The notes beneath the pieces were generated by a model. That model saw nothing but the letters and a program-made list of their open reading frames with translations. It was not told the DNA's origin and ran no database searches. DNA of 60,972 nt, counting the filler, from Vannella sp. (taxonomy: Eukaryota): NCBI GenBank assembly GCA_023345925.1. It is 5 parts of 5 records of this genome, joined end to end, with 100 filler letters (N's around TTAATTAATTAA, not from the genome) between each part and the next. Parts side by side here need not be neighbours in the genome. Positions count along the whole stretch, not along the records: positions 1 to 14,573 come from JAJQQN010000193.1; 4 more parts are not named here. One strand, written 5' to 3'. The position numbers and the translations under genes are program-made. Each line of letters starts with the position of its first letter. Position 1 is the first letter of the stretch. This document shows, piece by piece, positions 2,317-60,557 of the stretch.

Positions 2317-4982
2317 TCAGCTTTGGGCGGCCTTAAGGGCCTCTTCCTTGTTCTGGATCAGCTGTTGAACTTCGAGCAGCTTTGGGAACATGGGATGGCC
2401 GCGGAATCGGTCTTCTGTCTTGCGCAATAGCGATCTAAGGTGTAGAACGAAGGCGTGGATGGGTTTGCGCGCTTCCGTCTTCAAGTAGAGGTCGGTGAGG
2501 GCCAACTCTGCCTCCACCAGCTTCTGGAAGTCTTCATCCGTCATCACAACAACCTCTGCTTTCGCCAGTAACCTCACTTGCTTCTGTCTTGAGTCCAAAG
2601 CCTGAGCCCTTTGTCAGTTCTAGACAGCACCCTTTCATCGCCCTCCCTACCTTGTCCATCTGCCCTTGGGACTCTTGCAGCGTTGCATAGAGTTCCCACA
2701 CCTCAGGAGTCGATGCCATAAGGTCAGAAGTACGGCTCAGTAACTGCTCCACTTGAGCAGTCTGGAAGTCTGACAAGAAGAATGTCAATTCCAATGGGAC
2801 TTCCACGAAGACTCTTCCTACCTATAGCGCGAGTCCTCTCTGCTTGGTTTGCAGTGGCTTTGATGACATAGGAGACGAGAGTTTTGATCCAAGTGAATTT
2901 GACTTCGGCGCGGCGGAGGTCGAGGAGTCGGTTGATGGCTGTGATGGCGAAGGAAAAGTCTCCGCATTGCAGACTGAGCAAGAAGGCGTTCTCCCACATC
3001 TTCCAGCTCTCTTGCTTGTGCTTCAAACCTTCTTGCGCAGCATTGAATGCCTCTTGACTGGACCCAGCGTTAGAGGAGATGCCGTGAACCCCAAATGGAA
3101 TCTCACATCTTGCCGGATTGCTGAAGTGCGGTACTCAGATTAGCCCAAGCATCTCCATCTTCATGCTCTTGTTGGACACAGCTCGTAAATGCACGAGCAG
3201 CTTCATCCCACAAAGTAGCCTGCATCAGGCAACATCCCAAACTGAACCAAATTCCCGGATATAGCGGATTGAGATCCAGAGACTCGCGGAAGCACTTGAT
3301 AGCCAGTTCATGTTCTTGCTTGCGCAGATAGGCCTTACCCATTAATCGTTGAGCTTGAGCAAAGCGATGATTACTCAACTTCCAGGCTGTTTCGTAGTGA
3401 GAAATGTCACTTTCTAGTTCCCCGAGGATGCACCATAACTCAGGAGATGGTTTGATTGCTAATCGTTCCTTTGTAAGCTGCTTGGCCTTCTCGGGCTCCC
3501 CGATAATGATGTAACTGCGAATCAAGTCATCCCACATGCCCAGTTCGAGGAAGATATCTCTGGCACTCGCTGCAATGCCATACTTGAGATAGCGGCGACC
3601 AAGCTCTTGCTTCAGCAAGTGCCGAGGAGGGTAGTTCAGAGCGTAAATCACTCGCATTCGCTGTGAACCGGGAGGGTCTTCGTCGTCATACTGCTCCACA
3701 AGGGATTGGATCTGCAGAAGAGCGCGATCGAATGTCTTAATAGCGTCGCTCTCAATCTGTGCCTTGTACAGGAGGAAAGCGCTATGAACCATCCAGTTCT
3801 TGCTCTCCAATCCCACTCGATGAAGGAATGCCAGCCGTTCTTCGACTGCGAGAGGGTCTCCTGATGGGTTGCTCGCCTTGATGACACACAGTAGACTAAG
3901 CATCATCGCTTGATCGATGAGGTTGAGTGAGGTGCCGTGAGATTGCTCCTCCCGGAAGGCAGTGTGCTTCAAGAGGAGCTCGTGCTCTTGATCGACCACT
4001 TTGGGCTGCGTTTGGATCTCTTTGCCATCACTCTCGTCCCTTTTGAGGGTACTAGATGCCCTTACGATCAGCTGGCTAGTCTCCTTCTGCTGGAACTTGG
4101 TGCGTTTGCCAAGAGCCCCGGAGATTTCGATGTCCAACCCTGTGATCTGTCTGCCAATGCTCAGGGAGGCGATAGAGAGTGGGATCTCTCGATACTCATG
4201 GAAGAACAAGCTCTTCTCGATGTAGAAGGAGCCCTTTAGCTCGGGGGAGAGCTCTTCACCACTAAGGATGATCAGAGAGTGACCAGGGCGAGCCTGGGAG
4301 CACTTACCGCACACCAAAGAAGTCCTCTAACGTCAGCAAGTGTCTTTTGATGGCCATCTTCAAGGCTGGTGCGCGATCGGTCAACTATCGGAGGAGAAAA
4401 GATGAGAAAGAGCCGAGGAGCTGCACGAAGAGTCCCTACAGTTGTTTGTTGTGCTCTAAGGCAGCGAATACACCACCAAGGTAACGAGAACAAGCTGGCT
4501 GAAGGCGAATAAGGGAAGGTGAGGATGGAACGAGCGGCAAGGAGGAGTTTGGGCTGCACTATGATCTCGTAAACAGACTCCCCGCCCTCTACAAACAGTC
4601 CATTCTCGATCTCATCAGGAGTTAGAGCTTCAGTGAAGAGACTGGGAGGAAGGGCGAAGGCAGGACCCGTCCAATTGAGTTGGACAAACGCTCCAAGACA
4701 TCCCGCACCGAGCAACGTGAGCTTCAGGACCTCTTCATCGTACTGAGTGGGATCTGAGAGCTTGGATACACGCTCATCGATGGAACTGGTGAGTTCAAGC
4801 AACTTTGGAAGCAGTTCCTTGGCCAAGCGGCTCTCAAACAAGGCGGAGAAGTCGCTGTTCGTCACCATTCGGGCTAACTCCATCACTTCTCCCATCGACC
4901 CTTCCTGCGGCGTCTCCGCTTGGATCGCTTTCAAAGACAAAGTATCAGCTAATAGCACTGCTTGCTGCAACGCCACGAGCAT
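2317..4982 (-). CDS. TTC27: TPR-repeat protein, TTC27/Emw1 family
   Basis: Motifs FVQLNWTGP, GALGKRTKFQQKETSQL, NWMVHSAFLL and C-terminal TPRs (ESWKMWENA). Several ~50-nt introns. Confidence 0.88.
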
Positions 4983-5108
4983 GTTACTTCCAAAAGTCTC
5001 CCAACAAATGGCCAATCAGCAATTGGTTAGCATCCCAATGGACCTCCAGGAATAACAATTTCTACAGAGTCATGCCATATGGCCTCTGGCACCTTTTCCT
5101 GACATTAA

Positions 5109-5993
5109 ATGATGGCAGGGAGGGCGAGGAGGGTCCAGGGCCAGCTCCTGTTGAACCCTGAGAAGCTGAATCACTATGTACGTTGGTAACTAGGTGTATT
5201 CTTCGTAGTAAAGCTGATTGGGCCTTGCTAGATCGTAAGGGCGAAGGACTCTCGCGTTCGAAGGCTAACTTGCTGGTTTAGTGCGTTAGAGAGAATGGAA
5301 GGGAGCCAATAGGCGACCTAACGTAATGGGTAGTATGTGAGTGACTCAACCGAAAGGGAGAGCCCTGCACAAAGCTCATTAAGGTCAAAAGGGGGTAAGA
5401 GGTTGAAGTAGGTTAGCAGAAAGCATTAAACAATGGAAGAAAGTGAGTTTCCAGCTTTAAGGGTTGCAAAGTGGGCCACTCAAAAGGCTTTAGACCTTCT
5501 TGGGCAGCGCATCTCAAGCGGGTTGCAAAGAGACAGTCAACTATTTGCTTTCCGTTCGGTGCATCGACATTCAGAAAGGAGTAGGCTCAGCTTTCTTTAT
5601 TATTCGGTCAGAAAAGCATCTGATATGAACGTAGGATGTGAGTGAAGTGATACTTTCTACTTTCTTCGCATTTCACAAACTCATTAATGTAGGGAGTGAG
5701 TTTCCCCAAGTTATCTCTTTAGCCTTCGCGACTTATGACATATTAGACTGTAAGATATCTTTCTTGTGGCCTGCTGGCTGATATCTCTGGGAAAGGGAGT
5801 GAGTTAGGAGGCTTTCAAAGGATGTTCATTTAATCAATTGGTCTTCAGTGGGTGAGAGAGATTATTGGGAGGGGCGTTGAATAACCTCAAAAAGAGCCCA
5901 CTCGATTTAGCCGTGTGTTACCAGCAAGATGAAGTCATTCACATCCTCGTGCACTCCGGAGTCCGGAAATCTCCAGGTTTCACGTCACGTTAA
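5109..5993 (+). CDS. Small ankyrin-repeat protein encoded by 13 exons, ten of them 3-nt micro-exons
   Basis: Exons 5109-5177, 5232-34 ATC, 5282-84 TGC, 5334-36 TAT, 5392-94 GGG, 5440-42 AAA, 5494-5580, 5635-37 GAT, 5693-95 GGA, 5747-49 ACT, 5796-98 GGA, 5849-51 TGG, 5895-5993. Product: MMAGRARRVQGQLLLNPEKLNHY-ICYGK-TFLGSASQAGCKETVNYLLSVRCIDIQKG-DGTGW-SPLDLAVCYQQDEVIHILVHSGVRKSPGFTSR*. All 12 introns are GT-AG, 43-55 nt. The 5' and 3' ends are less certain. Confidence 0.85.
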
Positions 5994-6110
5994 AGAGCTG
6001 AAATCTAAGCTTTTCGCTGGGCCATTCAATGAAAGAGGGGTTTCTACATCCAACGGATTGAGAATCGCGGATGGTAAAGTCTTCCCATCCGTCAATGCAA
6101 TCGAATGAGA

Positions 6111-7133
6111 TTAGAACCGGGCACTCTTCTGCCAAGAGTACGAACGAGGAGAAGACCGAACGCTTGACAGGATAGGAGTGAATACATCATTTGTGTGGAG
6201 AAGCCCAAGTTGACCATACGTATTGTTTCCGAAGACAAGCAAGCTACCATCAGATTTGAAGACAAGAGAGTGACAATTTCCGGCAACCACGGAGCTAACT
6301 TCTTCCAAAGAAGGAATGCGCATTGGTTTGAATGTCTTAGGAGACAGTTTAGAGAGATCTCTTCCAAGTTGCCCTTGAATTGGCTGCGTTAATCCATGTT
6401 GCCAGCTCCAAACGCATCCTGTCTCATCTATGGCAAGAGTATGAAGCCCTCCACAAGAAGCAGTTATCATTGGGGGAATCTCAGCGATCCTTTGCAGTCC
6501 AGGGAGCTGCCCAGAGATCCAAACGCCCCCTTTCAAATCAATTACGATTGCATCATACCCTGCAAAGGTTTCCAGGCAGCGGAGAGGGAAAGAAACCTCG
6601 GATAAGTCCATTGGAGTTGGAGAAAGTGCCTCCTTGGTGCCACCAGCCAGCTTTGGTGCTCCCAAGATCCAAATGCCCCCTTCGTTGGCCTCTCCAATCA
6701 CAAAGCTCGCTCCGCAAGCTACTCTGAGAAGAGGAGGGAACCCATCTACGATCTTTGGGATATCACAGCACCAAGGAAGATGGGTTTGGCTCGTCCATAC
6801 CCAAAGCGCACCATTCGTGTCAATGGCTGCGCTCAGCCTGTCACCTGCAGCTATCTGGGTGATAGGAGGAAGCTCTGAGACTCTCTGGAAGGTTTGGGAT
6901 GGATGTGGCGACCGAAAAAGACCAGAACACCACACACCTCCCTCCTCATCCAGCACCAAAGAGTGATTCCATCCCCAGTCTACCTGCACGGGCCGTGTCC
7001 CCTTCCAAGGCACCTTCACAGCACCAGTATGAAAGTTCTCATGTCCCAATCCAAGGTTCCCCTGTCCCTGATAGCCACAGGCCAACAGATCACCCGCCTC
7101 CGAGATGATCAGCGTGTGATCTCCCTTGGGCAT
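6111..7133 (-). CDS. RCC1/BLIP-II-repeat beta-propeller protein (intronless)
   Basis: RCC1 repeats: GWNHSLVLDEEGGVW, SCGGLHTLAIDETGCVWSW, VAGNCHSLVFKSDGSLLVFGNNTYGQLG. Start uncertain. Confidence 0.85.
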   Translation of the reverse strand: MPKGDHTLIISEAGDLLACGYQGQGNLGLGHENFHTGAVKVPWKGTRPVQVDWGWNHSLVLDEEGGVWCSGLFRSPHPSQTFQRVSELPPITQIAAGDRLSAAIDTNGALWVWTSQTHLPWCCDIPKIVDGFPPLLRVACGASFVIGEANEGGIWILGAPKLAGGTKEALSPTPMDLSEVSFPLRCLETFAGYDAIVIDLKGGVWISGQLPGLQRIAEIPPMITASCGGLHTLAIDETGCVWSWQHGLTQPIQGQLGRDLSKLSPKTFKPMRIPSLEEVSSVVAGNCHSLVFKSDGSLLVFGNNTYGQLGLLHTNDVFTPILSSVRSSPRSYSWQKSARF

Positions 7134-7284
7134 CAATGAAATGCCTGAATAATTATAATCACAATGGTTTTGATGTTGGTTGGGAGAAAGCAAATGAAAA
7201 AAACAACTGAAAAATTCTTGGAAAAGGAAAATTTGCGTAACCAGGGGAACTTTTTCTGCTTCATTTATTTCCTCCACTTCCTTG

Positions 7285-10200
7285 ATGAGTGCTTCGCTGT
7301 TCTTGGGGGGTCTTCCAGAGAGCGTGAAGGGTTTGGTTGCTCAGCGAGTGGCGTCTTCTGAACTGTGGAATGTGGTGGAGATGCCTACCGAGACATGCAC
7401 GCATGTTCTGAGCGACTTTGAGGCGCCTGAGTTTGAGGCTCTCTTCTCTTCTCGACAAAAAGTGATCGGTGCTGGACTCTTGCTCAGTGCACTCTCGCAG
7501 CGAGTGCCTCTCCCGCGGTTGGGACAGCATGGGGCACTCTTCAGTCTTGTTATGGCTGGAGTCGTCTTGACCACCTCTCAGTTATCAACAAAGGAGCGAG
7601 ACCAAATCGAAAAGGAAGCAACATGTATGGGTGCTCGAGTAGTACACAGCTTTGTGTCCTCTGTCACTCATCTCGTCACGAACATCCCAAACACACAGAA
7701 GTATCTGCTCGCCAAGGAGCGAGGTAATCCTATTGTTCTGCCCGATTGGGTTCACCAATGCTGGCGCGAGAACAAACTTGTACCAATCTCTAATGGACTT
7801 TCCGTCAAGGAAGAGAAACAGGCTATCTCAACACCTTTCCTCGATGTAATCCAGAAAGCTGAGGTACCCCAGCTGCCTCTGCAGCAGTGTGTCGCATGCG
7901 TTTCTGGATACTCAATGGCTCAACGAGTGATAATTAGGAAGGTTCTCCATAAGTTGGGGGGACAGTACTCCTCTGGTATCAACAGTAATGTGACCCACTT
8001 CTTGTGCGAGAATGCAGGGCGAAAGAAGTACACAGAAGCCAAGTCATTTGGAATCCCTTTTTTAGTATCTGGGAAATGGCTCGAACGCTGTCTCGAGACA
8101 ACCAGACGTGTGCCCGAGTTAGACTTCACTTTGGTGGAGCCACAAGAACTAGTTCCGAGAACATTGTCTCCTCACGAAGACGAAGTTGAGATTGAGATCT
8201 CAACTCCAACTTTGGCTCTTCTTTGCAATCAGCCGAGGAATGCAAGATGTTTGTTTCAAAGAATCTCGTTCATTTCTCTTGGATTTGATGACCAAGAAGT
8301 AACTGAGCTCTCTAACTTCCTCAAACAGTATGGAGGTGCTGTCAAGCCACAAACTGGATCCTTCGGCAAATCTGATGAGTCGTTACACTCAAACATCGTT
8401 CTGCTTTTGCTTCCCCATGGAAGAATTGAAAGCTCGCCCCATCAAATTGTTACTGTGAATTGGATCGAAAGATGTATCGAAGAAGGCATGCTCTTAGATC
8501 CAACTCAAAGCTGTCTATTTACTCCACTTCCTTGTATTGTACCCTTCAATCACACAAGGAACAAGACAATCTCTCTCACAGGGTTTCAAAGCCAAGAGCG
8601 CCGAAATTTGAAGATGCTTGTGATAGTGATGGGATTCAAGTACTCTGAAAGACTGACTCCTCATGTGGATTTCTTACTCACTATCCCGCCTCTCACTTCC
8701 TCAGGAAAATGCCAAGCTGCTAAGGAATGGAATATCCCCTTTATCCATGCTGATTGGGTTATCAAGAGCGCTCAGCATGGAAACTTATTACAACTGGCCA
8801 AGTTTTATATCATCCCAGATGTTCCAGAGTCGGTTATTCAACTCCCTCAACCAGTGGAGATTGAGGAAGTTTCACAGCCACCAAAAATAGCACCTATCGA
8901 ATCTCTTCTGAACGGAGTCTTTTTGTTCATTACTGCGAGAGTGCGTGAGTCCTTACACGAAGATCTGATCAAGATATCTGCTGCAATGGGAGCCATCGTT
9001 GAAACGAAGTTATCTCACGTTGTTACTCACGTGCTAGATCAAACCCCCTCTTCCAGTCCCTCTTACTTCTTCACAGCTCAGTCCCTTCATAACATCACTC
9101 CAGCGGTGATCAACTCTCATTGCCCTTCTGCCAAAATCACATCTCCTCTTTGGCTCCAGCAGTGCTATTTCCGCCAGGAGTGGCTCCCAGAAGCAAGTTT
9201 CCCGCTCACATCGGCTCCAATTCTTAACATGACGTTAAGTACGGTATCCAAACCTTCAGTGCCGAGTGAACTTGAACATGAATCAACTTTGGCTTTACCT
9301 CAGAAACGCCAGTACTCTCTTGGCTTGACACCTACTCGCCCAATAGCCACCAAGAAAAGGCGTTTGGCTTCTCCTGCAGTGAGAATGTTCGATCTCCATG
9401 ACCAAGAAGAGGAGAGAGCCTTGCTCGAAAAGCAACGCTTGAACCAAACAAAAGCTGCCCCACCTTCATCAGAGTTTGTGAATCTTTGTGACCAAGAGCT
9501 TGAGGATATCCCTGTGGATAAATCTCACCCTCGAACTCTCGAGCACTACCAACAGCTAGGATTCCATTCTCCAGAACTCTTCCCTCTTTCCCCTTCTCCC
9601 TCTCCTCCAGCTGTGGAAGAGAGTTTACCTCCTCAACCCCTGTCGCCGAGCATCAGTTCTTCTGACGAAGAGAAGGAGTCAGGAACCCAATCTGCCATCT
9701 TCGATGAGCTGAAGGATCTCCTTGAGGGCCCGAATTCAGCTCTGTACGCACCATTGGAAGCAGAATCATGTCCTGCGTTGTCAAAGGAGAATTCACAGAC
9801 TTTAGAGAATCAGGAAGTCGAAGCAGAGGAAGAGATCCTTTCTGCTTCAGATTGCGAAAGTGAGGATGATCAGATTGTGACTTACGGCGGTGCTAAAGCT
9901 CGTCCTGCACCTCCTCCGATACCAAAGAAAAAAGTCCCAACCTTGCCAGAAGAGATTCCTTTGAAAGATCTTGCGCTCGCTCTAACAACCACCAAAGTTT
10001 CGAAGTCCTTTGTATTCAGTGGAGTCAGCCGTTCTGTCAAGGAGCGGCTGAGCAAGATAGTAACTGATCTTGGCGGAACCGTCCTTTCCGACCAGGACTT
10101 GGGAGGGATGACTCATCTTGTCACACCAAGCGCCTCTCGCAACCTAAAATACTTGACAGCACTCGCAGGCGGTAAATGGATCGTCTCCCCAGACTACCTT

Positions 10201-23143: not shown

Positions 23144-23587
23144 TTAGGAGGGAGGAGGAAGGGAAGGGGGCCGAGGTATCAGACTGAGGCATCGCCGAAG
23201 CAAAGGTTGGCGATTGCTCCCTCGCAGAAGGGGAAGTAAGTGAGTCTGGTCTTCCTGTACGGCCCAATCTATCGGAGACGCGTTGTCTGAATCGCGAAGG
23301 TCGGGTCGGGCGTTGGCTTGAAGAAGGGCGGAGACAACTTCCTCTCTTCCGCTTTTCACAGCCCAGTGGAGCGCACTCTCTCGAAAGAAGTTGACTTTGT
23401 TCACATCTTCACCTTCTTGTTGCAAAAAGAAGGCCACAAACCGTGGGTCTCTTCGGAGAGCGGCAAAGTGAAGAGGATAACTTCCATAAGTGCTGGTTTG
23501 GTTGAGGTCCTCCATTAGGCGTCCCAACTCGGTTTCTGAGAAAGCTTCTCGGACGACGTATCTGATCAATGGACTCCAGCCGGTCAT
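23144..23587 (-). CDS. Ankyrin-repeat protein (intronless)
   Basis: YGSYPLHFAA, FRESALHWAVKSG, DNASPIDWAV. Confidence 0.85.
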   Translation of the reverse strand: MTGWSPLIRYVVREAFSETELGRLMEDLNQTSTYGSYPLHFAALRRDPRFVAFFLQQEGEDVNKVNFFRESALHWAVKSGREEVVSALLQANARPDLRDSDNASPIDWAVQEDQTHLLPLLRGSNRQPLLRRCLSLIPRPPSLPPPS

Positions 23588-23744
23588 GAAGAGCGGGAGA
23601 AAACTAACGATTTTCGAGCGGAGCCGAAGTGCATTCCCAAAAGGAAATTGTTCAAGTAAAGTGGCTTGTGCCGACACGAGAAAGCCAAAAGGGGTGAAAG
23701 AGACACCAAGTTTGTTTCCTGTTTTGGAGAAGAAAAGTTCCTTT

Positions 23745-25607
23745 TTAGTGAGCGTTCGCAAACACACTTTTCAAAGCAGCTCTGTACTTCTCAAATACTT
23801 CTGCTGAGACAGGAGGAAGCAGTAATCGGATAGTCTTCATCGTACTATCTGTTCTTGAAAGGAGAATGGCGTGCATCGCCCTCATGATTGTGAAGGCCCG
23901 AGCCAGACAGAGAGGGTGCGATTGTAAGTGTTCCGGAAGCTCGTGGCAGAGGAGAAGAGGAAAAGTGAGAGAAGTGACGTCATACTGAAACGCCACATCA
24001 AACATCCCCCGCAAACCCTCAATCAAAACAGAGTCTGGGCCAATCAGCAGTGATTCCGCCACAAAGGAAGGAGGTTTGGTGAGTCAAGGAAAGGAGGGAG
24101 ATGGAGTAGAGGAGAGGGAGGGAAGAAAGAAGGATATCTCGAGCGTTCTCGCCAATGAAATGGAACAAAACGTGAAACTCCCCCAAACAAGAGTGTTTGG
24201 TGATGAAGAAGTCGCCCGTTTGGAAGCTGGCGGAATCACTTTGCAACCGGATCCGTTCAATTTGGCTGTCCAAAGACTCAAAAATGGGATCTGTTCGTGT
24301 TTCGCTGAGTTTGAGCAGTTTCGTGGCACCAGGACTGTTGTAAACCAGAGCGGGATCCGCAATGAAGGCCAATCCTGATAAGCTTGAGGAGAACATTGTT
24401 CTGGCTGCTTTGATAAGAGACATTCTGCCTTCGAGTTAACTGTGAAAGTCGACTGACATGGAGAAGTTGTCTCTTACCGACTTTGCTGAGAGTGACCAAC
24501 TGCTTCTGGAGCTGATAAAGTACTTAATTCGATGTTATACAGCATCGGATTCCGGATTCCCACAGAAACTGTCAGTGATCCTTCAATACCCTTGCTCTGA
24601 CTCTCTCTTGGAGCGTCTTTTCGATCGGTAGCTCCACTGCATGAGCGTTAAAACCAGCTAGGCTCGGAAAGAGAGTCAAACCTTTCTGCATCGCGAAGTT
24701 TAAACCACCTCCGATGACGTTTTGGCTCTCCCTGGTCTTCCTCAGCATCGGCCTCCATTGCGAATGCTTCGTGGTCGATTGTATCGTACTTTTGAACGTA
24801 TTCCCGGAAGGCCACCGCCTGGCGCTTGTTGAGGGAGACCAGTTTGTCCTTGTACTTTCGGTCTAATTCGTTCAATTCTGCCATGTGCTTCTCTACTAAC
24901 GCAGATATACTCATTTGACTCAAGACTGTAGCTTTGTTCATCTCATCTGATTGGCTTTGGTTGGGCTATCAGGGCTTTGGCAAAAGTGACATTCCTGCAA
25001 CTCACTTGGCGTGCATCGAGTCCTGTTCTTCGACTCGCTGAGAGAGGAGTTTGCAGACAACCACTTTCTGTTTCTCTTGGAACTGGACGATCCTTTCGCA
25101 GTCCTCAATGCTGCGGTTACAGAGTCGATGGAAGGTTTGCTCGAAGCCTTCCTTCTATTCGTTCCCTCTGTGAGTCCAAGAGTGCTGGTAGCTCAAGTAG
25201 TCGTACAGAGGATCTGAGGGATTGATTCGTGTTGTGCTGGACGCCTTCATCTGCGTAGAGAGTTCGCCATGACTGTTTGTAGGAAGAGGCGAACCGTTTT
25301 GTCGTCTCACTATCAGAGGAGAGCTCAGCCACTTACAAAACCCTGGTGTTAGTACAGGGTATTCGTTTGGATCCTCTTAGAACTCACCTGCTTCTCTGTC
25401 CTGCTCCCCCAAAGCGGGATCCTTCAGAAGGCGGTCTGCAGTGGCGAGAATCGGTATCTCCAGGTAGACAGGGATGTCCTCCTGGACAAAGAAAGCTCGT
25501 AAAGCCTCCTCGGAATCCTCTCCTTGTCTCAGATTCACCTCTACAAGGACGTACTTCTTCCCCACGGCAAACTTGAACCTCAGAGTCGTCGAGCGGGCCA
25601 CAATCAT
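23745..25607 (-). CDS. C12orf4/FERRY3 (DUF2362) family protein
   Basis: DIPVYLE, GDFFITKHSCLGEFHVLFHF, AFQYDVTSLTFPLLL. Includes an AT-AC intron at 24074-24137. Confidence 0.75.
24074..24137 (-). other. U12-type (minor spliceosome) AT-AC intron
   Basis: Donor ATATCCTTCT, branch TTCCTTGAC, acceptor AAAC. Removal restores the frame ENAR|APSFVAESLL. Confidence 0.85.
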
Positions 25608-42424: not shown

Positions 42425-45277
42425 ATGTCGGACAAGGCGGGCAAACCGACCAAGCCGGAGGATGCCCAAGCCTCTTACAGTCCTTCGAGTAGGAAGAAGC
42501 GAGCAGTGGAGATCACTTCATCACCTTCTGTACGTGGATTTAGGGGAGTGGGCTGCGCGCCAAGTGTAAGTGCCTTCGTGGACACGAACGGAAAGCCGAG
42601 GGACTACACCGCCTCGGTCCCGCGGAAAGACGCTCCTGTGGATAAGACAGAACTACTCAAGAACCCCCGTTATCGTATCCTGAAGGAGATCAAAGACTCC
42701 GAGCGGACGTACCTGACCTTTCTGCAATCCGTTGCTCTTCTCTTCCTATCGCCCTGCAAGAGCTCTACCTCGACAGCAAGCCCCATCCTCACGCCGGCAC
42801 TTATAGAAGACCTCTTTGGGAACATCCTTGAGGTTGTGGAGATCTCAACGCAGGTTCTTCAAGCGATCGAGGTTCTCGCTCATCCACAAGGCTGGGATAG
42901 CGAGAACTCCACTGTTGGAGACCTATTCTTTGAGCTTATCGATGTACGTTCTCTTCCTTGCTCCAGTGAACTGAGTTGACCGTCTACTAAGGGAGACCTA
43001 CCTCGTGTCTATTCAGACTACGTTGCTGGATACGGGAAGCGACTGAAAGCCTTGGCCTCCACACCAGAGCAATTTAACCTCTTTCGTAGATCGCAAGAGG
43101 GCGGGCAGCTTTGTGGGAACCATACGCTGAGTTCGCTTCTTATCACACCCATCCAGCGCATTCCTCGCTATGTCCTGCTCCTCAGGGACCTCAAACGACA
43201 TACTCCAGTAGGACATGAAGATATCCCTTTACTTTCACGAGCCATGAGCGAGTTCGAGAGCCTCACAGACCAGCTGGACCAAATCAAGCGCAAGGCTGAC
43301 ACACGAGACCAGTATTCCACCACTCTTTCAAGCCTTCAGAAGAAGGGAGACCCCAAGATACGGGCTGCTATCGAAAAGGGGGACATTGAAGCCGCTGGAT
43401 TCATTGTTGAATTCCACGAAGGCGAATATGTCCCTCTCTTTTGCGTTCTCTTCAGCGATATGGTGGTGGGATGTGTGCTTAAGAAAGACATGACTGTCGC
43501 TCGAGTTAGATGGTGTATTGATCTTCACAGTGCATATCTGGCACGCGCAACGAGAGAGATTGGCCCTGAACTGGGCAGGAAGCTGGAAATAACCAACGAC
43601 TATATCATTCTTACTGAGCTCCGTTGCATCCACCAAGAGCCATTCAGCCAGAACTTTACTTTTGAGCTGTTCCCCACAAAGGCACCGTATGATATGGGAT
43701 TTTGGTATAATTCCATCCTCACAGTCGTTTCGTCTCTTTGGTTTGACAACAAAGTGCTTTTAAGCAACTCCTACCGGTTTAGGCGGCACATAGAAGATCA
43801 CCTTTTCCCGTTGAGTCAGTGGAGACTGATTCAATTAGCTGGCAGCGAGCAGACCTTCCATCCTGGAGAAGTTATTATTCACGAAGTACGTCACATGATA
43901 CGAAGATTTTGGCATTAGCTCACTATCTCCCACAGGGGACAAAATCACAACAACTTTGTATGATTCTCGAAGGCCAGGTTCGGGTGACCAAACCAAGTAC
44001 CCTCAAAAACACTGTTCTTACTCGTCTAAGAAAGTAAGTGACTCAAAAATGCGGCTTAGATGTTGCTAACAACCTGTAGGCGAGAGTTCTTTGGCGAGTT
44101 CAGCTATTTGACCTTCAATCAAGGTCAATCTGTTTCTACCGTCACGGCATCAACTCGCACAACAATCTCAATGGTTTCATTTAGTGCTCTGACAAATATC
44201 CTCCTCTCTGACCCTCTCATGATGTACCGCTTCTTTCGTTTCCAGTGTGTGGCGATGGCAAATCGGCTGGTTTTACAGCTATTCACTCGCCTTAACAGTG
44301 GCCAAGTCCGCCAAAAGCGGCGAGATTCCCAAATGCTTCAAAAGAATCTATCTTTAATGACCAATACCGAAGAGGATGACGAGGAAGTGAAGGAGGATTC
44401 TGAGGATTCTGCCTCAGAGCTTTATATCCCGTGCGAGTCATCCCCAGAGCCCTTCTCAGCATCTCCTTCCTGCCCACTCTCTAGGAAGTATGCTCATGTT
44501 ATTTCAAAACAGCTTCCTGATAACGAAGAAGTCCTCTTAGAGCTCAATGTAGAGCTGGGAGGGTTTATCGGAACAGGCAAGAAAGGCAAATTCCTCTTCT
44601 TAAACCGCCATATCTGCGTGGTGACAAAGTCTGGATTCAGTCAAAAAGGCCGATTAATCTCTTTTCCAGACATCCAACAGCTTCTGGAAAATGAGAACCA
44701 GCACATGCTGGTCATCATCGGGCGCCTCTTAACAGGAGAGGTCGTCGAGCTTCAATGTTGTTTTGAAACGCATTCGGACTACTGCCGCACCAACTCCCTT
44801 CTTCAGACCATGGTTGCTAACACACACGGCGATCCGCAGTCCCTCCGCGACGAAACTCCCTTCGAGGGTCTTGATTTCGACAAGCAAGAATGGGACTTTT
44901 TCCTCTCTCAAATGCCCCAGAGGAAGTACCCTCGAGGGGATTACTTGGCCAGGTTAGCCACTACAGCAGAAACAGTCTTTTTGGTGCTCTCTGGACAGTT
45001 TGAGATTCGGACAAACCTGGACAAGTCCTCCACAACAGAACACAACCCACTTGTGGGCGCCGGTGCGATTTTTGGTGATCTCACCTTCATTCAAGGTGGT
45101 ATCGCTACAGCAGATATTGTTGCCTTTTCAGAGGACTGTGAAGTCGTCTGCTTTGAAAAGGGCATCATTGACGAACTCACAACCACAAACCCCGCCCTTG
45201 TGGGCAAATTCTATCGCTTCTTGGCTGCCCAAATGGTGGATCGCTTCCTTGCTCTACAATCAAGTCTTCTCAGCTGA
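42425..45277 (+). CDS. DH(RhoGEF)-PH + cNMP-binding-GRAM-like-cNMP-binding protein
   Basis: EIKDSERTYL, LFGNILEV, LLITPIQRIPRYVLLL; cNMP GEVIIHEG...FFGEFSYL and GDYLAR...GAIFGDLTFI; LPDNEEVL...GKFLF between them. Confidence 0.82.
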
Positions 45278-56121: not shown

Positions 56122-58030
56122 TCAAGTTTTATTCTCTTCTTTGATACCCTCCCAAGTCTGTCGGTTGGTGAGGAGAATCTCAGAGCACGTTTTGGTTTTG
56201 GGAAGGAACTTCTCAAGAACAGCAAACAACGGAATCACAAAATAGTCTGCAAACCCAGTTTGCATAAGGGCAAGGTTAGGATTCTCCCGGTCCATGAATC
56301 CAGAAATGTCACGTCCTTCTGTCCGTTCCAAATCGCCCTGTCTTATGTTAGACATTGAAGGAATGGAAAGAAGAATCGCTTACCTGAATGAAAAATTCTT
56401 CTTGAACCATATCGGCCCAGTACCGAGCAACGGGGAAGGGCTTGGCAGGATTAGATATATCGGCAGCCTTAATTAGTATCTGCATGAGCAGCAAATGGTG
56501 ATCCGCATTGTCGGCTTGGAAGCTTCCTGCAGTGGCTTGTGCCTTATTGAGAAGTTCCATATGTTTAGAAAGGTCGGTGGCAAGGATGCATCCAATGACA
56601 AGCTTGCGAACAGTACTGTACTGCACTTTGTCGAGATTCTCGAAGATGTTGCATTCCGGGTCAGACAAGATGGTGAAGGCGAGAGCACAATGGAAGTTCT
56701 CTAACACAGACTGGTCATTGTAGCGAATGGCCAGTTCATGGCGAGAGGTTATCAGATACGGGTTGTTCAGACCAAAATGGCCCACATCGTGGCAGATGGA
56801 GGCAATAAGAACAGCGAAGATCTCAAGATGGTTCAGGAAGGTGGCCCCATCTCCATCCGTTAGAAAGGCGTAGACACTTTGTGTGACGTCGAACCCGTGG
56901 ATGAAGTTGTGGTAAGGATTCTTCGCCACGTACTTGGAACGAACCGTCAGAAGGAACCGCTGGAACTTCTCACGATCAACTTGGAACATCTCAAGCAATC
57001 CAAAGTCATCAAACATGTTGTTGAGGTAGACCACGAGGTCGTCCTCTCTCTTTGACCAGACGTCGTATTGGAAGGTTCGGAGCTCCCTCACCTCCTCCTC
57101 GTTACTTGAAGACCACTCAACCTTACCAGTATCTACCACTTCGTTAAGAACGGAGGCTGTGAACTGGCCTCCAAGCTCAGTTATCAGCCACTTCTTCGTT
57201 ACGCTGTCCACCGATTGGTTTCTCATCATCTTGGTGAAGGCAGGCTTGTACAGGTTGGAAGATGCCAGTGATTGAAGTATTTGGCTGAGAGCAGACTTGA
57301 TCTCAGGCGTCAGATTGGCCTGGGTTTGGAGATCCGCGATTGTTCGAGTGATGGCGTTAATGGGCGTATCTACCGCCTGGTCGATCTTAGAGGTGAGATC
57401 AGTGAGTTGAGACTGAAGGTTCTGTAGTTCTTTGTCTAGGTTGTCGCTTTTGCTCCTCTCCTCCTTGAGCTCTTGAATGATAGCGCCTTCCTTCTTCTTC
57501 TTCCAGATGTTGGACCAGAGGTTCTTCAGTTGTGGTAATCGAACTGGTTTGACCATGTAATCGTCTGCTCCTATGCTTAGACACTTGTACACGGTGCTGA
57601 GATCCTCCGTAGCAGAAACCACTGCAGTTCGGTGTTAGTCGTTACCCCAAAGAGAGGGAGCGGAGGAGTAAATCGGATAAATGACACATACTTATAACAG
57701 ACATCTCATGAGCGTGAGGGAGCTTGCGGATCTCTGTAAGCAAAGCCAAGCCGTCCATCCCTGGCATGAGCACATCACAAAGAGCGATGTGATATGTGTT
57801 GTTCCTGATGAGATCAAGTGCTTCAAATGGAGAAGAACAACATGTGATACCTACAAACAAGTCAGTTCTCCCATCCCAACACCCCCCTTTTGTAAGTGCT
57901 CACACTCATAGCCGCTTTTGCGTAGACCCCGTTCCAGCACCTTCCGTGCTACTGGTTCATCATCAATGACAATGATGTTCAGACTCTTCAACTGAGACTG
58001 AAGATCAGGCGTCCCGTCAGCTGGAGTCAT
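56122..58030 (-). CDS. regA: Response-regulator receiver + class I cyclic-nucleotide phosphodiesterase (RegA-like)
   Basis: Receiver IIVIDDE...CDVLMPGMDG...GADDYMVKP; PDE NPYHNFIHGFDV, HDVGHFG, SVLENFH, ILATDL, ADISNP, QGDLER. Confidence 0.85.
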
Positions 58031-58319: not shown

Positions 58320-60557
58320 ATGCCGACATACGAGGAGTTGGTGGCGTTGCTGGCGGTGACTGACCCGGCAGCGGTAGTGGAGCTGATTTTGAGGAAGGCG
58401 CACTCGGGAGATGGGTTACAGGCAGCTTGGGGACTGTTGGAGGAGCTGGTGGAACAATCGGCGAGGCCGCCGGTGTTGCGCTCGGTTGATTCTCTCGTGG
58501 AGGAGCCTATTCTTGCCAATGCCTTCAAGAGGTTCTTACGAGAGCGCTTTTGCGTGGAGATGTGGGACTTCTGGTGCGATGCAAAGGCATTCCGGGCCAC
58601 TTTCTCGTCTTGTGGTGAAAGCGCGCGTTTCGCGTACGTTTCGGTCTTCTTCGCTCTTTTGGCGCTTGGAGACTCACAGGAGAAATAGAGAGGCATACAG
58701 AATATACGATACCTACATCAGAGATGGTGCACACTTGCAGGTCAATGTGGACTACGAGATTCGCACTGAAATTGCCTCTTTCTTCGCAGATCTCAAGCTC
58801 CCTGAGACAGCTGACTCACTTTCATTTGAAAAGAAAAGCTTTCGCCCAAGTATGAAAGACTTCAAGGTGCCCAGTGCGTCTGAGAGAGCCCATACAATGC
58901 GAAGAGTCAGCGAGCAGTTTTCGAGCTCCAGCGCCCTCCAGATAACTCAGAAGCTCTTCTGGAAGGCAGAAATGGAAATAGTCTACTTGCTCGAGAAATC
59001 TGAGCTTCCATCCTTCTGCAGCAATCCCTCCTACGCTTCCAAGCAAGTCATTCTTCCTCTTTCGTTCCATCTTACTCACCCTTCACAGCTTGCAACTTGT
59101 CAAAACCAAACGATCGATTGAACTGACCACGGGGAACTACAATCTGCATGACTTTGACTTGGAACCAGGGGAATGGCGACTTTTGATGACAAACGCACAA
59201 GAAAGCAACCACATACGAGGCGAGCAAATCACTGCACAGGGAGAGTACTCTCCCAAACTGTTTTATGTAGTAGATGGAGAGCTAGAAAGTACAACCCAGA
59301 GAGGATCTGGCGTAGTACTGAAATGGCCGATATCTGGGGGTTGTCTCTTCGGAGAGATTACGGTCTTTTCAGGGACTTTCCGGGCTTTCTCAACTGTTTC
59401 TGTGATATCTGAAACGGCAACTATTCGCTGCCTCAACCTACCGATGATCTTTCAGTACTTCCTTTTGGAGCCAGTTGTAGCAATGAGGTTCTATGTGTTG
59501 GTTGGCAAGAGACTCAGCCGATTACTCCAAGCAGCCGACCTTCATTCGGAAGGCGCACTGGAAGAATCAGCAAAGGTCCTGCAGGAGGTATCGGTGACGA
59601 AACTCGAGGAGTTTGAACTTATCAACCAAGAACCCTCGGAAGGTCTCTCTTCAAGTCTTTTCCGGCAGCTTTTCCCATCACTGAGCCAACAAAATGTACT
59701 ATGTGAATGTGATGGTGTGCTGGAAACATCTCTCCGTTCGAGAAAAGTGGTTATTTACATCACTCACAACACGTTCAACTACGTTGACCAAGGCAAGGGA
59801 TTGGTTAGTAGCAAGATAGTGTTGATGTCTCGTTATTAACCCAGTGAAGGTAAAAAGTATCCCCATTCACGAAGCAGAGGTGCTTGTCACACGCTCTTGC
59901 CGATTGCTCCTCATTTGGAGAAGAAAGAGGTGCACGATGCGTTTTCCTGAGAACGGTATTAGAGACCGTGTGGTTATGCTTCTTGAAACTTTGAAATCGA
60001 ACAACAAAGAGCAAACCCTTGAGGAAGCTGTGACGGCTGTCATCAAATTTCAACCTACTTTGACTCAAAGTGATTGGAAAGAACTGATTCGAGTAGCCCA
60101 GCAACACACTGATGAGACTTCTTCATTCGCAAGCCCGGAATCGGAGACAGTAGTGACAAAACATACGTACTACACCGAGTACTCCTTTGGAGATACCATT
60201 TCTAGTCAAGGGCAGCTTCACCAGAGGATCATCCGCGTGATAGAAGGATCTTGTGTCGCTGAGAGAGTGTGCGACCTACCAGATGGTAAAACTTCCTCAA
60301 GGTCTCTTTACACTCTTGGAATGGAAGAAGTGGCCGGGGAAAGTTCCTTTTTCGTGTCAGATACTTCGCACTACTCTCTGATTGCGAACGAGGCTGCTGT
60401 AACAGTCCTTGAGATCAGTGGGACATTCGTACAAACCATCTTCTTCGCCCAAAACCCCCAAGCTGTTGTCCGCTTTTACGACTTCTTCTGTCGCTCATTG
60501 GCTGCCCGCGTCCTCCGTTCATTTGCAGCACTACAAGATAATGATAATATAAACTGA
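58320..60557 (+). CDS. RGS domain + cNMP-binding-GRAM-like-cNMP-binding protein
   Basis: RGS FKRFLRERFCVEMWDFW...IYDTYIRDGAHLQVNVD; cNMP GEQITAQGE...LFGEIT and GDTISSQGQ...VAGESSF. Confidence 0.8.

What the first reader, a model, noticed from the sequence alone, without database searches (positions are those of the whole stretch)
5178..5894. Hidden ankyrin gene with ten single-codon (3-nt) micro-exons in two arrays of five
Seen in sequence: this apparently ORF-less stretch has the pattern AG|NNN|GT ten times at ~50-nt spacing. The exons are ATC, TGC, TAT, GGG, AAA (5232-5442) and GAT, GGA, ACT, GGA, TGG (5635-5851). All 12 introns are 43-55 nt, matching the other introns in the window. Donors are GTACGT, GTAAGG, GTTAGA, GTGAGT (x5), GTAAGA (x2), GTAGGC and GTGAGA. 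Most have a CTAAC/CTGAT/CTCAT-like branch 8-14 nt before the AG. Joining everything gives one stop-free 94-aa protein with two correctly spaced ankyrin repeats. Isolated 3-nt micro-exons are known in animals, and Schistosoma micro-exon genes use larger exons. I do not know of a described gene in which five consecutive codons are each their own exon. ORF and gene finders would miss it.
Basis: partly seen in the sequence, partly recalled or inferred. Interest (0 to 1): 0.97.

Follow-up and report, generated by a model that had tools for sequence, protein, structure and literature searches.

The report
Ankyrin loops spelled codon by codon
In an unidentified, likely amoeba-like microbe, ten three-base pieces lie between normal-looking short introns and would supply, one amino acid each, exactly the five residues of each predicted binding loop of a small ankyrin-repeat protein, likely all spliced in together; one-codon exons like these are already reported in truffle and fruit-fly genes.

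Summary
Ten AG|NNN|GT units form two chains of five; no shuffle gives more than two. The 12 introns match the window's other introns in length and signals, but not each other in sequence. Splicing gives an open 94-codon frame. The second array fills a five-residue gap in an ankyrin profile (43.6 versus 32.1 bits). Both arrays occupy positions 1-5 (DxxGx beta-turn) of the repeat, and the second reads D,G,T,G,W. The profile supports only the last two codons of the first array. No RNA, genome or orthologue was available, so splicing is inferred. Best reading (0.6): a real small ankyrin gene whose one-codon exons are mostly all included, because exon number equals loop length. Rival (0.25): skipping diversifies the binding loops. 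The kind is not new: Tuber nank genes have dozens of alternatively spliced 3-bp exons (seen only through citing papers), and Drosophila sowah has constitutive 3-nt exons. This scan found similar ankyrin-loop arrays before on other DNA (Pelomyxa, an uncultured eukaryote, SOWAH genes). What differs: both loops are fully spelled codon by codon, in the same register, with diverged introns, in a tiny stand-alone gene.

The parts
5109..5177 (+). Exon 1 (23 codons): start ATG, N-terminal cap-like half repeat ending at repeat position 33
   Evidence: In-frame TAA directly before the ATG; best + strand coding score in frame 0, though a reverse frame scores higher, 3.0 vs -1.7; cap-like reading is inference
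5178..5493 (+). Array 1: six introns (54, 47, 49, 55, 45, 51 nt) around five 3-nt exons at 5232, 5282, 5334, 5392, 5440 (Ile, Cys, Tyr, Gly, Lys) = repeat positions 1-5
   Evidence: profile supports only the last two codons
5494..5580 (+). Exon 7 (29 codons): helix-loop-helix body of ankyrin repeat 1, from position 6 to 33 with one extra residue
   Evidence: home-made profile E 0.33 alone; no Pfam hit alone
5581..5894 (+). Array 2: six introns (54, 55, 51, 46, 50, 43 nt) around five 3-nt exons at 5635, 5693, 5747, 5796, 5849 (Asp, Gly, Thr, Gly, Trp) = DxxGx, repeat positions 1-5
   Evidence: consensus DxxGxTPLH from PMC4308713
5895..5993 (+). Exon 13 (32 codons plus TAA): ankyrin repeat 2 body and short tail
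   Evidence: 7 of 8 phmmer hits are ankyrin proteins; Pfam Ank_2 E 0.028, below cut-off, on the stretch 5856-5990; weak hits to designed ankyrin proteins in the PDB

Best explanation
Ten three-base units lie between twelve short introns with this genome's usual signals, and they likely act as real exons that are mostly all spliced in, giving a predicted 94-residue protein with two ankyrin repeats whose five-residue beta-turns are each spelled one codon per exon. Shown: the layout, intron-like signals, open frame, and exact fit of array 2 to the DxxGx turn. Inferred: the spliceosome here recognises each ~50-nt intron across its own length, so exon size hardly matters and skipping (which needs a ~100-nt or longer intron) is disfavoured. 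Retaining any one intron would bring a stop or a frameshift. The arrays are likely old, since the introns have lost all mutual similarity but kept their signals, and selection likely holds them at exactly the loop length. The protein likely works as a small protein-binding adaptor whose turns form part of the binding face; its partner is unknown. Some skipping at the weaker sites (introns 5395-5439, 5581-5634, 5852-5894) is not excluded.
For: Chains of 5 never arise in shuffles. Lengths 43-55 nt against 44-58 nt in 19 reference introns. All 12 introns score at the 94th-99.6th percentile of 8103 GT..AG pairs, and the proposed acceptor is the best one for its donor in 10 of 12. Full inclusion scores 43.6 bits against 32.1 with no micro-exons, and the alignment without them shows a gap of exactly five. 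With array 1 full, full array 2 is the best of 32 patterns; the next is 39.7. Random codons reach the full score in 34 of 2000 (array 2) and 18 of 2000 (array 1) trials. The spliced frame has coding score -0.8 against -35.8 and -38.6 in the other frames; 2 of 1000 shuffles reach it. All 5 introns with length divisible by 3 hold an in-frame stop. Precedent for constitutive one-codon exons: Drosophila sowah ME2, ME3, ME19 and ME119 stand in the constitutive list (PMC8042270 supplements).
Against: No RNA was seen. The profile does not prefer full array 1: the best of 1024 patterns keeps only its last two codons (46.0), none of the five scores 43.3, and full-full ranks 4th. Single skips in array 2 give the canonical 33-residue period and lose only 4-7.5 bits. 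The reference introns were hand-picked by me (19, nearly all from the 118 candidate joins) and are not RNA-verified, so the match is partly circular. The coding score lies in the lower third of 16 held-out coding pieces (-14.9 to 14.1). A search for long introns was inconclusive: 4 donors at 43-60 nt and 3 at 91-330 nt.
Confidence: 0.6

Rival explanations
1. A splice-level diversity device, as in Tuber nank genes. Each phase-0 codon exon can be skipped without a frameshift, so the gene would make a library of binding-loop variants (1024 patterns, 896 distinct proteins) for recognising varied partners or invaders.
For: All ten exons are one whole codon. They sit on positions 1-5, which include three of the high-entropy positions (2, 3, 5) randomised in a designed ankyrin library (PMC4308713 passages). 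Pattern count. Tuber precedent. Three introns have weaker signals, and single skips restore a 33-residue period.
Against: Exon number equals loop length, so skipping can only shorten the turn and offers no spare codons to choose from. The conserved D1 and G4 are themselves on such exons. Full array 2 scores best. The gene has no NACHT or other effector domain and no room for one between its neighbours. No second array lies in the window.
Confidence: 0.25
2. A decaying or silent relic of a once larger micro-exon gene family: the structure is real, but the gene is no longer expressed or no longer spliced efficiently.
For: Only two repeats plus a partial cap. The first motif departs from TPL. Modest coding score.
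Against: All 12 introns keep GT-AG and good scores although their cores are unrelated (highest pairwise z 2.5 among 66 pairs), which needs continuing selection. The frame is open from ATG to TAA.
Confidence: 0.1
3. The three large exons are joined directly across two ~315-nt introns, and the internal AG-NNN-GT units are chance or only splicing waypoints.
For: Direct joining is also in frame (84 codons), and the profile barely needs array 1.
Against: Chance is excluded by shuffles. Direct joining leaves a five-residue gap and a 29-residue period, seen in 1 of 76 natural periods counted. The triplets encode profile-fitting residues.
Confidence: 0.05

Closest known systems
Tuber melanosporum nank (NACHT-ankyrin NLR) genes, Iotti et al. 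2012, PMID 22289772 (paper not held; known here only from passages of PMC4986451, PMC3689799, PMC9815663, PMC10197012, PMC13449251)
   Same: Multiple 3-bp, codon-sized exons in an ankyrin-repeat gene.
   Different: Here there is no NACHT domain, the protein is 94 residues, and there are ten exons (five per loop) rather than tens or dozens. Alternative splicing is not shown, and the host is likely not a fungus. Where the Tuber exons sit within the repeat I could not see.
Drosophila melanogaster sowah (FBgn0036302) microexons ME119 (12 nt), ME3 (GGC), ME2 (TAT), ME19 (6 nt); PMC8042270 supplementary Tables 4 and 5
   Same: Single-codon exons, listed as constitutive. If read in phase 0, a Gly codon and the next codon each have their own exon, as at positions 4 and 5 here. 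That they lie in ankyrin loops comes from earlier AI notes and my recall, not from the paper.
   Different: Two 3-nt exons in the fly list against five in a row, twice, here. Fly spacing is 1-3 kb against ~50 nt. Orthology was not tested.
Schistosoma micro-exon genes (MEGs; features recalled, no call)
   Same: Tandem, frame-preserving micro-exons.
   Different: Here the micro-exons give only 30 of 282 coding bases, are all 3 nt, and lie inside a folded ankyrin domain.
Designed ankyrin libraries (DARPin / ANK-N5C; PMC4308713 passages)
   Same: The micro-exons cover the DxxGx turn, where positions 2, 3 and 5 are randomised.
   Different: Engineered and intronless; a positional analogy only.

Membership tests
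Ankyrin repeat proteins | ~33-residue repeat with DxxGx turn before a TPL-like motif and two helices | tested here: met
   Home-made profile 43.6 bits, period 34; 33 and 34 make up 28 and 30 of 76 natural periods; consensus from PMC4308713
Ankyrin repeat proteins | Pfam Ank score above the curated cut-off | tested here: inconclusive
   Only single exons were scanned: 5856-5990 gives Ank_2 15.4 bits against a cut-off of 27.3; exon 7 gives nothing. The spliced protein was not scanned.
Ankyrin repeat proteins | Ankyrin fold of the whole product | not tested
   No model of the spliced protein was made
Tuber nank genes | Several codon-sized exons in an ankyrin gene | tested here: met
   (DNA level)
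Tuber nank genes | NACHT (NLR) domain | tested here: not met
   ATG-to-stop span 5109-5993 lies between a TPR gene and an RCC1-like gene; no NACHT among the 38 frames scanned
Tuber nank genes | Tens to dozens of mini-exons | tested here: not met
   Ten, five per loop
Tuber nank genes | Extensive alternative splicing; expanded gene family | not testable with these tools
   No RNA run listed; no whole genome held
SOWAH / sowah ankyrin genes | Orthology of the ankyrin region and shared intron positions | not tested
   No SOWAH protein was among the fetched sequences; only the fly micro-exon rows were seen
SOWAH / sowah ankyrin genes | Constitutive inclusion of the one-codon exons | not testable with these tools
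   Fly: constitutive list. This gene: no RNA.
Schistosoma MEGs | Coding sequence made mostly of micro-exons (recalled feature) | tested here: not met
   30 of 282 coding bases

The most novel reading that the evidence does not exclude
The DxxGx beta-turn of the ankyrin repeat is an ancient or repeatedly reinvented site of one-codon exons across amoebae, fungi and animals. This gene is its cleanest form: an intron between every residue of both binding turns, working as a natural, splice-made DARPin-like library of up to 896 variants from 885 bases of DNA.
Probability: 0.2. Interest if true: 0.8.

Novelty: new variant of a known kind. Interest (0 to 1): 0.5.

Why it matters
It shows a gene that a six-frame ORF list misses (longest exon 33 codons), so more such genes may sit unannotated in small-intron eukaryotes. 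It is a compact test case (885 bases, 12 introns) for how a spliceosome handles five 3-nt exons in a row, and for whether one-codon exons in ankyrin loops serve diversity (as reported for truffle) or are constitutive (as listed for fly sowah). The same register in both repeats, with fully diverged introns, bears on whether this layout is old and shared or convergent.

Tried and rejected
No whole genome is held. No RNA holder was listed for 3000-9000; this is no evidence on expression. Orthologue searches with 5856-5990 and with 5494-5625 among longer proteins: 0 of 13 and 0 of 6 candidates scored. phmmer of exon 13 found only generic ankyrin proteins at 36-52% identity, plus one unrelated repeat. 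A DNA pattern for two one-codon exons before a TPL-like motif gave 1 match in the window (0 of 100 shuffles), 0 in viral contigs, 28 in metagenome contigs and 12 in prokaryote genomes as a control. By eye, none of the 28 continues into an ankyrin repeat or carries a chain of varied codons; several are simple repeats. This pattern only sees introns of 41-59 nt with GTRAG donors. The neighbouring TPR gene found no related locus in viral contigs. Recent tandem duplication of an intron unit was rejected: no tandem array over the locus beyond one 15-base, period-7 hit, and no pairwise similarity. Homology of same-position introns between the arrays was inconclusive (z 1.9, 0.7, 0.9, -0.5, 0.8, 0.0; others mean 0.18). 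No Rfam match in 4900-6300. The host taxon is unresolved: the nearest URO-D relatives are unnamed (77-79% identity); the atlas was uninformative for taxon and gave ankyrin leads only, below its recognition threshold. An alignment of exon 7 with exon 13 was out of register and was not used. Paper searches with no relevant hit: '3-nt microexons'+tandem+consecutive, 0; 'single-codon exons', 0; microexons+Amoebozoa, 2 unrelated by listing; micro-exons+protist+3 bp+ankyrin+tandem, 0. The library lacks most subscription papers, so this does not show absence from print.

Full report
Observation. The region 5100-6000 holds 17 AG-NNN-GT sites, against 2-6 for each other spacer length from 0 to 9. The 12 introns are 43-55 nt with the stated donors, and joining the 13 exons gives an open frame of 94 codons and a TAA. 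The longest chain at 44-62 nt spacing is 5 in the window. It is at most 2 for any other spacer on either strand, in 300 of 300 window shuffles, and in 5000 of 5000 local shuffles. A scan for chains of introns around exons of any size up to 15 nt found these two arrays and two low-scoring chains of three.

The introns look like this genome's introns. I hand-picked 19 reference introns, nearly all from the 118 candidate joins of long frames; they are not RNA-verified and the choice leaned on splice signals, so the comparison is partly circular. They are 44-58 nt and end in TAG 8, CAG 6, AAG 4, GAG 1; the array introns end in TAG 7, AAG 4, CAG 1. A branch-like word occurs in 15 of 19 and 8 of 12, against 1047 of 4809 random AG sites. 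With a matrix trained on the reference donors and acceptors and on branch words from recall, the 12 score at the 94th-99.6th percentile of 8103 GT..AG pairs. The proposed acceptor is the best for its donor in 10 of 12; introns 5395-5439 and 5852-5894 have slightly better rivals further on. The intron cores are unrelated to each other (highest z 2.5 in 66 pairs), and no tandem array covers the locus. So this is not a fresh satellite. All five introns with length divisible by three contain an in-frame stop.

The product is ankyrin-like. Exon 13 alone retrieves 8 proteins, 7 of them ankyrin proteins, and weakly matches designed ankyrin proteins in the PDB (best E 0.008). I built a two-repeat profile from 50 segments of those 7 proteins (96 before removing near-duplicates; P0124 dropped as non-ankyrin). 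The micro-exons were not in the query that found them. Full inclusion scores 43.6 bits and direct joining 32.1, with a gap of exactly five residues at array 2. With array 1 full, full array 2 is the best of 32 patterns (next 39.7). Random codons reach the full score in 34 of 2000 trials for array 2 and 18 of 2000 for array 1. Against this, the profile alignment starts only at the third codon of array 1. The best of all 1024 patterns keeps only its last two codons (46.0), and dropping all five costs 0.3 bits, so the first three rest on splice signals alone. A codon-position model gives the spliced frame -0.8 against -35.8 and -38.6 for the other frames; 2 of 1000 shuffles reach it, but it is in the lower third of 16 held-out coding pieces.

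Register. PMC4308713 (passages read) gives the repeat consensus as DxxGxTPLH..., with positions 2, 3 and 5 among the high-entropy, randomised positions, which form a binding surface with helix 1. Both arrays start right after position 33 and end right before position 6. Array 2 reads Asp, Gly, Thr, Gly, Trp, which fits DxxGx; array 1 reads Ile, Cys, Tyr, Gly, Lys, with Gly at position 4. Among 70 distinct natural pentamers before the motif, Asp is commonest at position 1 (23) and Gly at position 4 (36). The period is 34 residues because exon 7 has one extra; 33 and 34 account for 28 and 30 of 76 natural periods (not independent, as they come from seven repetitive proteins). PMC8229355 (passages) added only general background.

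Context. The gene lies head to head with a TPR gene (first Met near 4982, minus strand) and tail to tail with an RCC1-like frame that ends at 6111, leaving about 120 bases on each side and no room for a larger protein. A second ankyrin frame in the window (23147-23770, minus) has uninterrupted loops. The gene content (MyTH4-FERM best matching the PDB chains named Myosin-I heavy chain, RhoGEF/RhoGAP, phosphodiesterase with a weak receiver-domain hit, PPR proteins) suggests an amoeba-like protist; that is inference from recalled domain distributions. The URO-D tree groups the window only with unnamed or unlabelled sequences.

Mechanism. I favour mostly full inclusion. The number of exons equals the length of the turn in both repeats, the conserved Asp and Gly are on such exons, and every skip in array 2 lowers the profile score. 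With introns near 50 nt, recognition across the intron (established knowledge for small-intron eukaryotes, recalled) makes exon size unimportant and skipping harder. My check for long introns in the window was inconclusive. The rival is skipping for diversity: 1024 patterns give 896 distinct proteins, and single skips restore a 33-residue period at a cost of 4-7.5 bits. No RNA holder was listed, no genome is held and no orthologue was found, so the two cannot be separated here.

Comparison with what is known. Five papers, read as passages, describe Tuber melanosporum NACHT-ankyrin genes with multiple, tens or dozens of codon-sized (3-bp) exons that are alternatively spliced (PMC4986451, PMC3689799, PMC9815663, PMC10197012, PMC13449251). 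The source paper (Iotti et al. 2012) was not held, so I do not know where those exons fall in the repeat. This gene has no NACHT domain and is not a nank member. In the supplements of PMC8042270 I saw five sowah micro-exons (12, 3, 3, 6 and 27 nt); the four I looked up stand in the constitutive list. The main text does not mention sowah or ankyrin. That these exons lie in ankyrin loops comes from the earlier notes and recall. This precedent moved me towards constitutive splicing. Earlier notes of this scan also report 18 one-codon exons in one ankyrin loop of Pelomyxa and up to four in a row in small ankyrin genes of uncultured eukaryotes; I did not check them. Four paper searches found no description of this layout in a protist, within a library that lacks most subscription journals.

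Verdict. A real and unusual gene structure, well supported at DNA level and unproven at RNA level. It is a new variant of a known kind: both beta-turns fully spelled by five one-codon exons in the same register, with diverged introns, in a minimal stand-alone ankyrin gene. Interest 0.5.

Noticed in passing
window 23147-23770 (-): A second small ankyrin frame with uninterrupted loops. At 23584-23567 it encodes the same six residues (TGWSPL) that the last three codons of array 2 and the start of exon 13 would give; E 1.3 in the window, so chance is not excluded.
   Followed up: partly
window, introns ending at 42991, 59849 (+) and 23741, 30589 (-): AAG acceptors appear common in this genome (4 of 19 hand-picked introns, 4 of 12 array introns).
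   Followed up: partly
window 4982-5109: Only about 126 bases separate the start codons of the TPR gene (-) and the ankyrin gene (+): a likely shared two-way promoter.
   Followed up: no
window 59703-59849 (+) and 59127-58983 (-): Two low-scoring chains of three candidate introns around 1-6-nt exons; probably chance.
   Followed up: no
window 56351-57634 (-) and 58393-60554 (+): A phosphodiesterase with a weak receiver-domain hit lies next to frames with RGS and cyclic-nucleotide-binding domains; RegA-like is a recalled label.
   Followed up: no
L005 1115-1470, L002, L017: Tandem repeats of 43-55 nt in which each unit carries AG-GGN-GTGAG; the triplet does not vary, so these look like plain satellites.
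   Followed up: no
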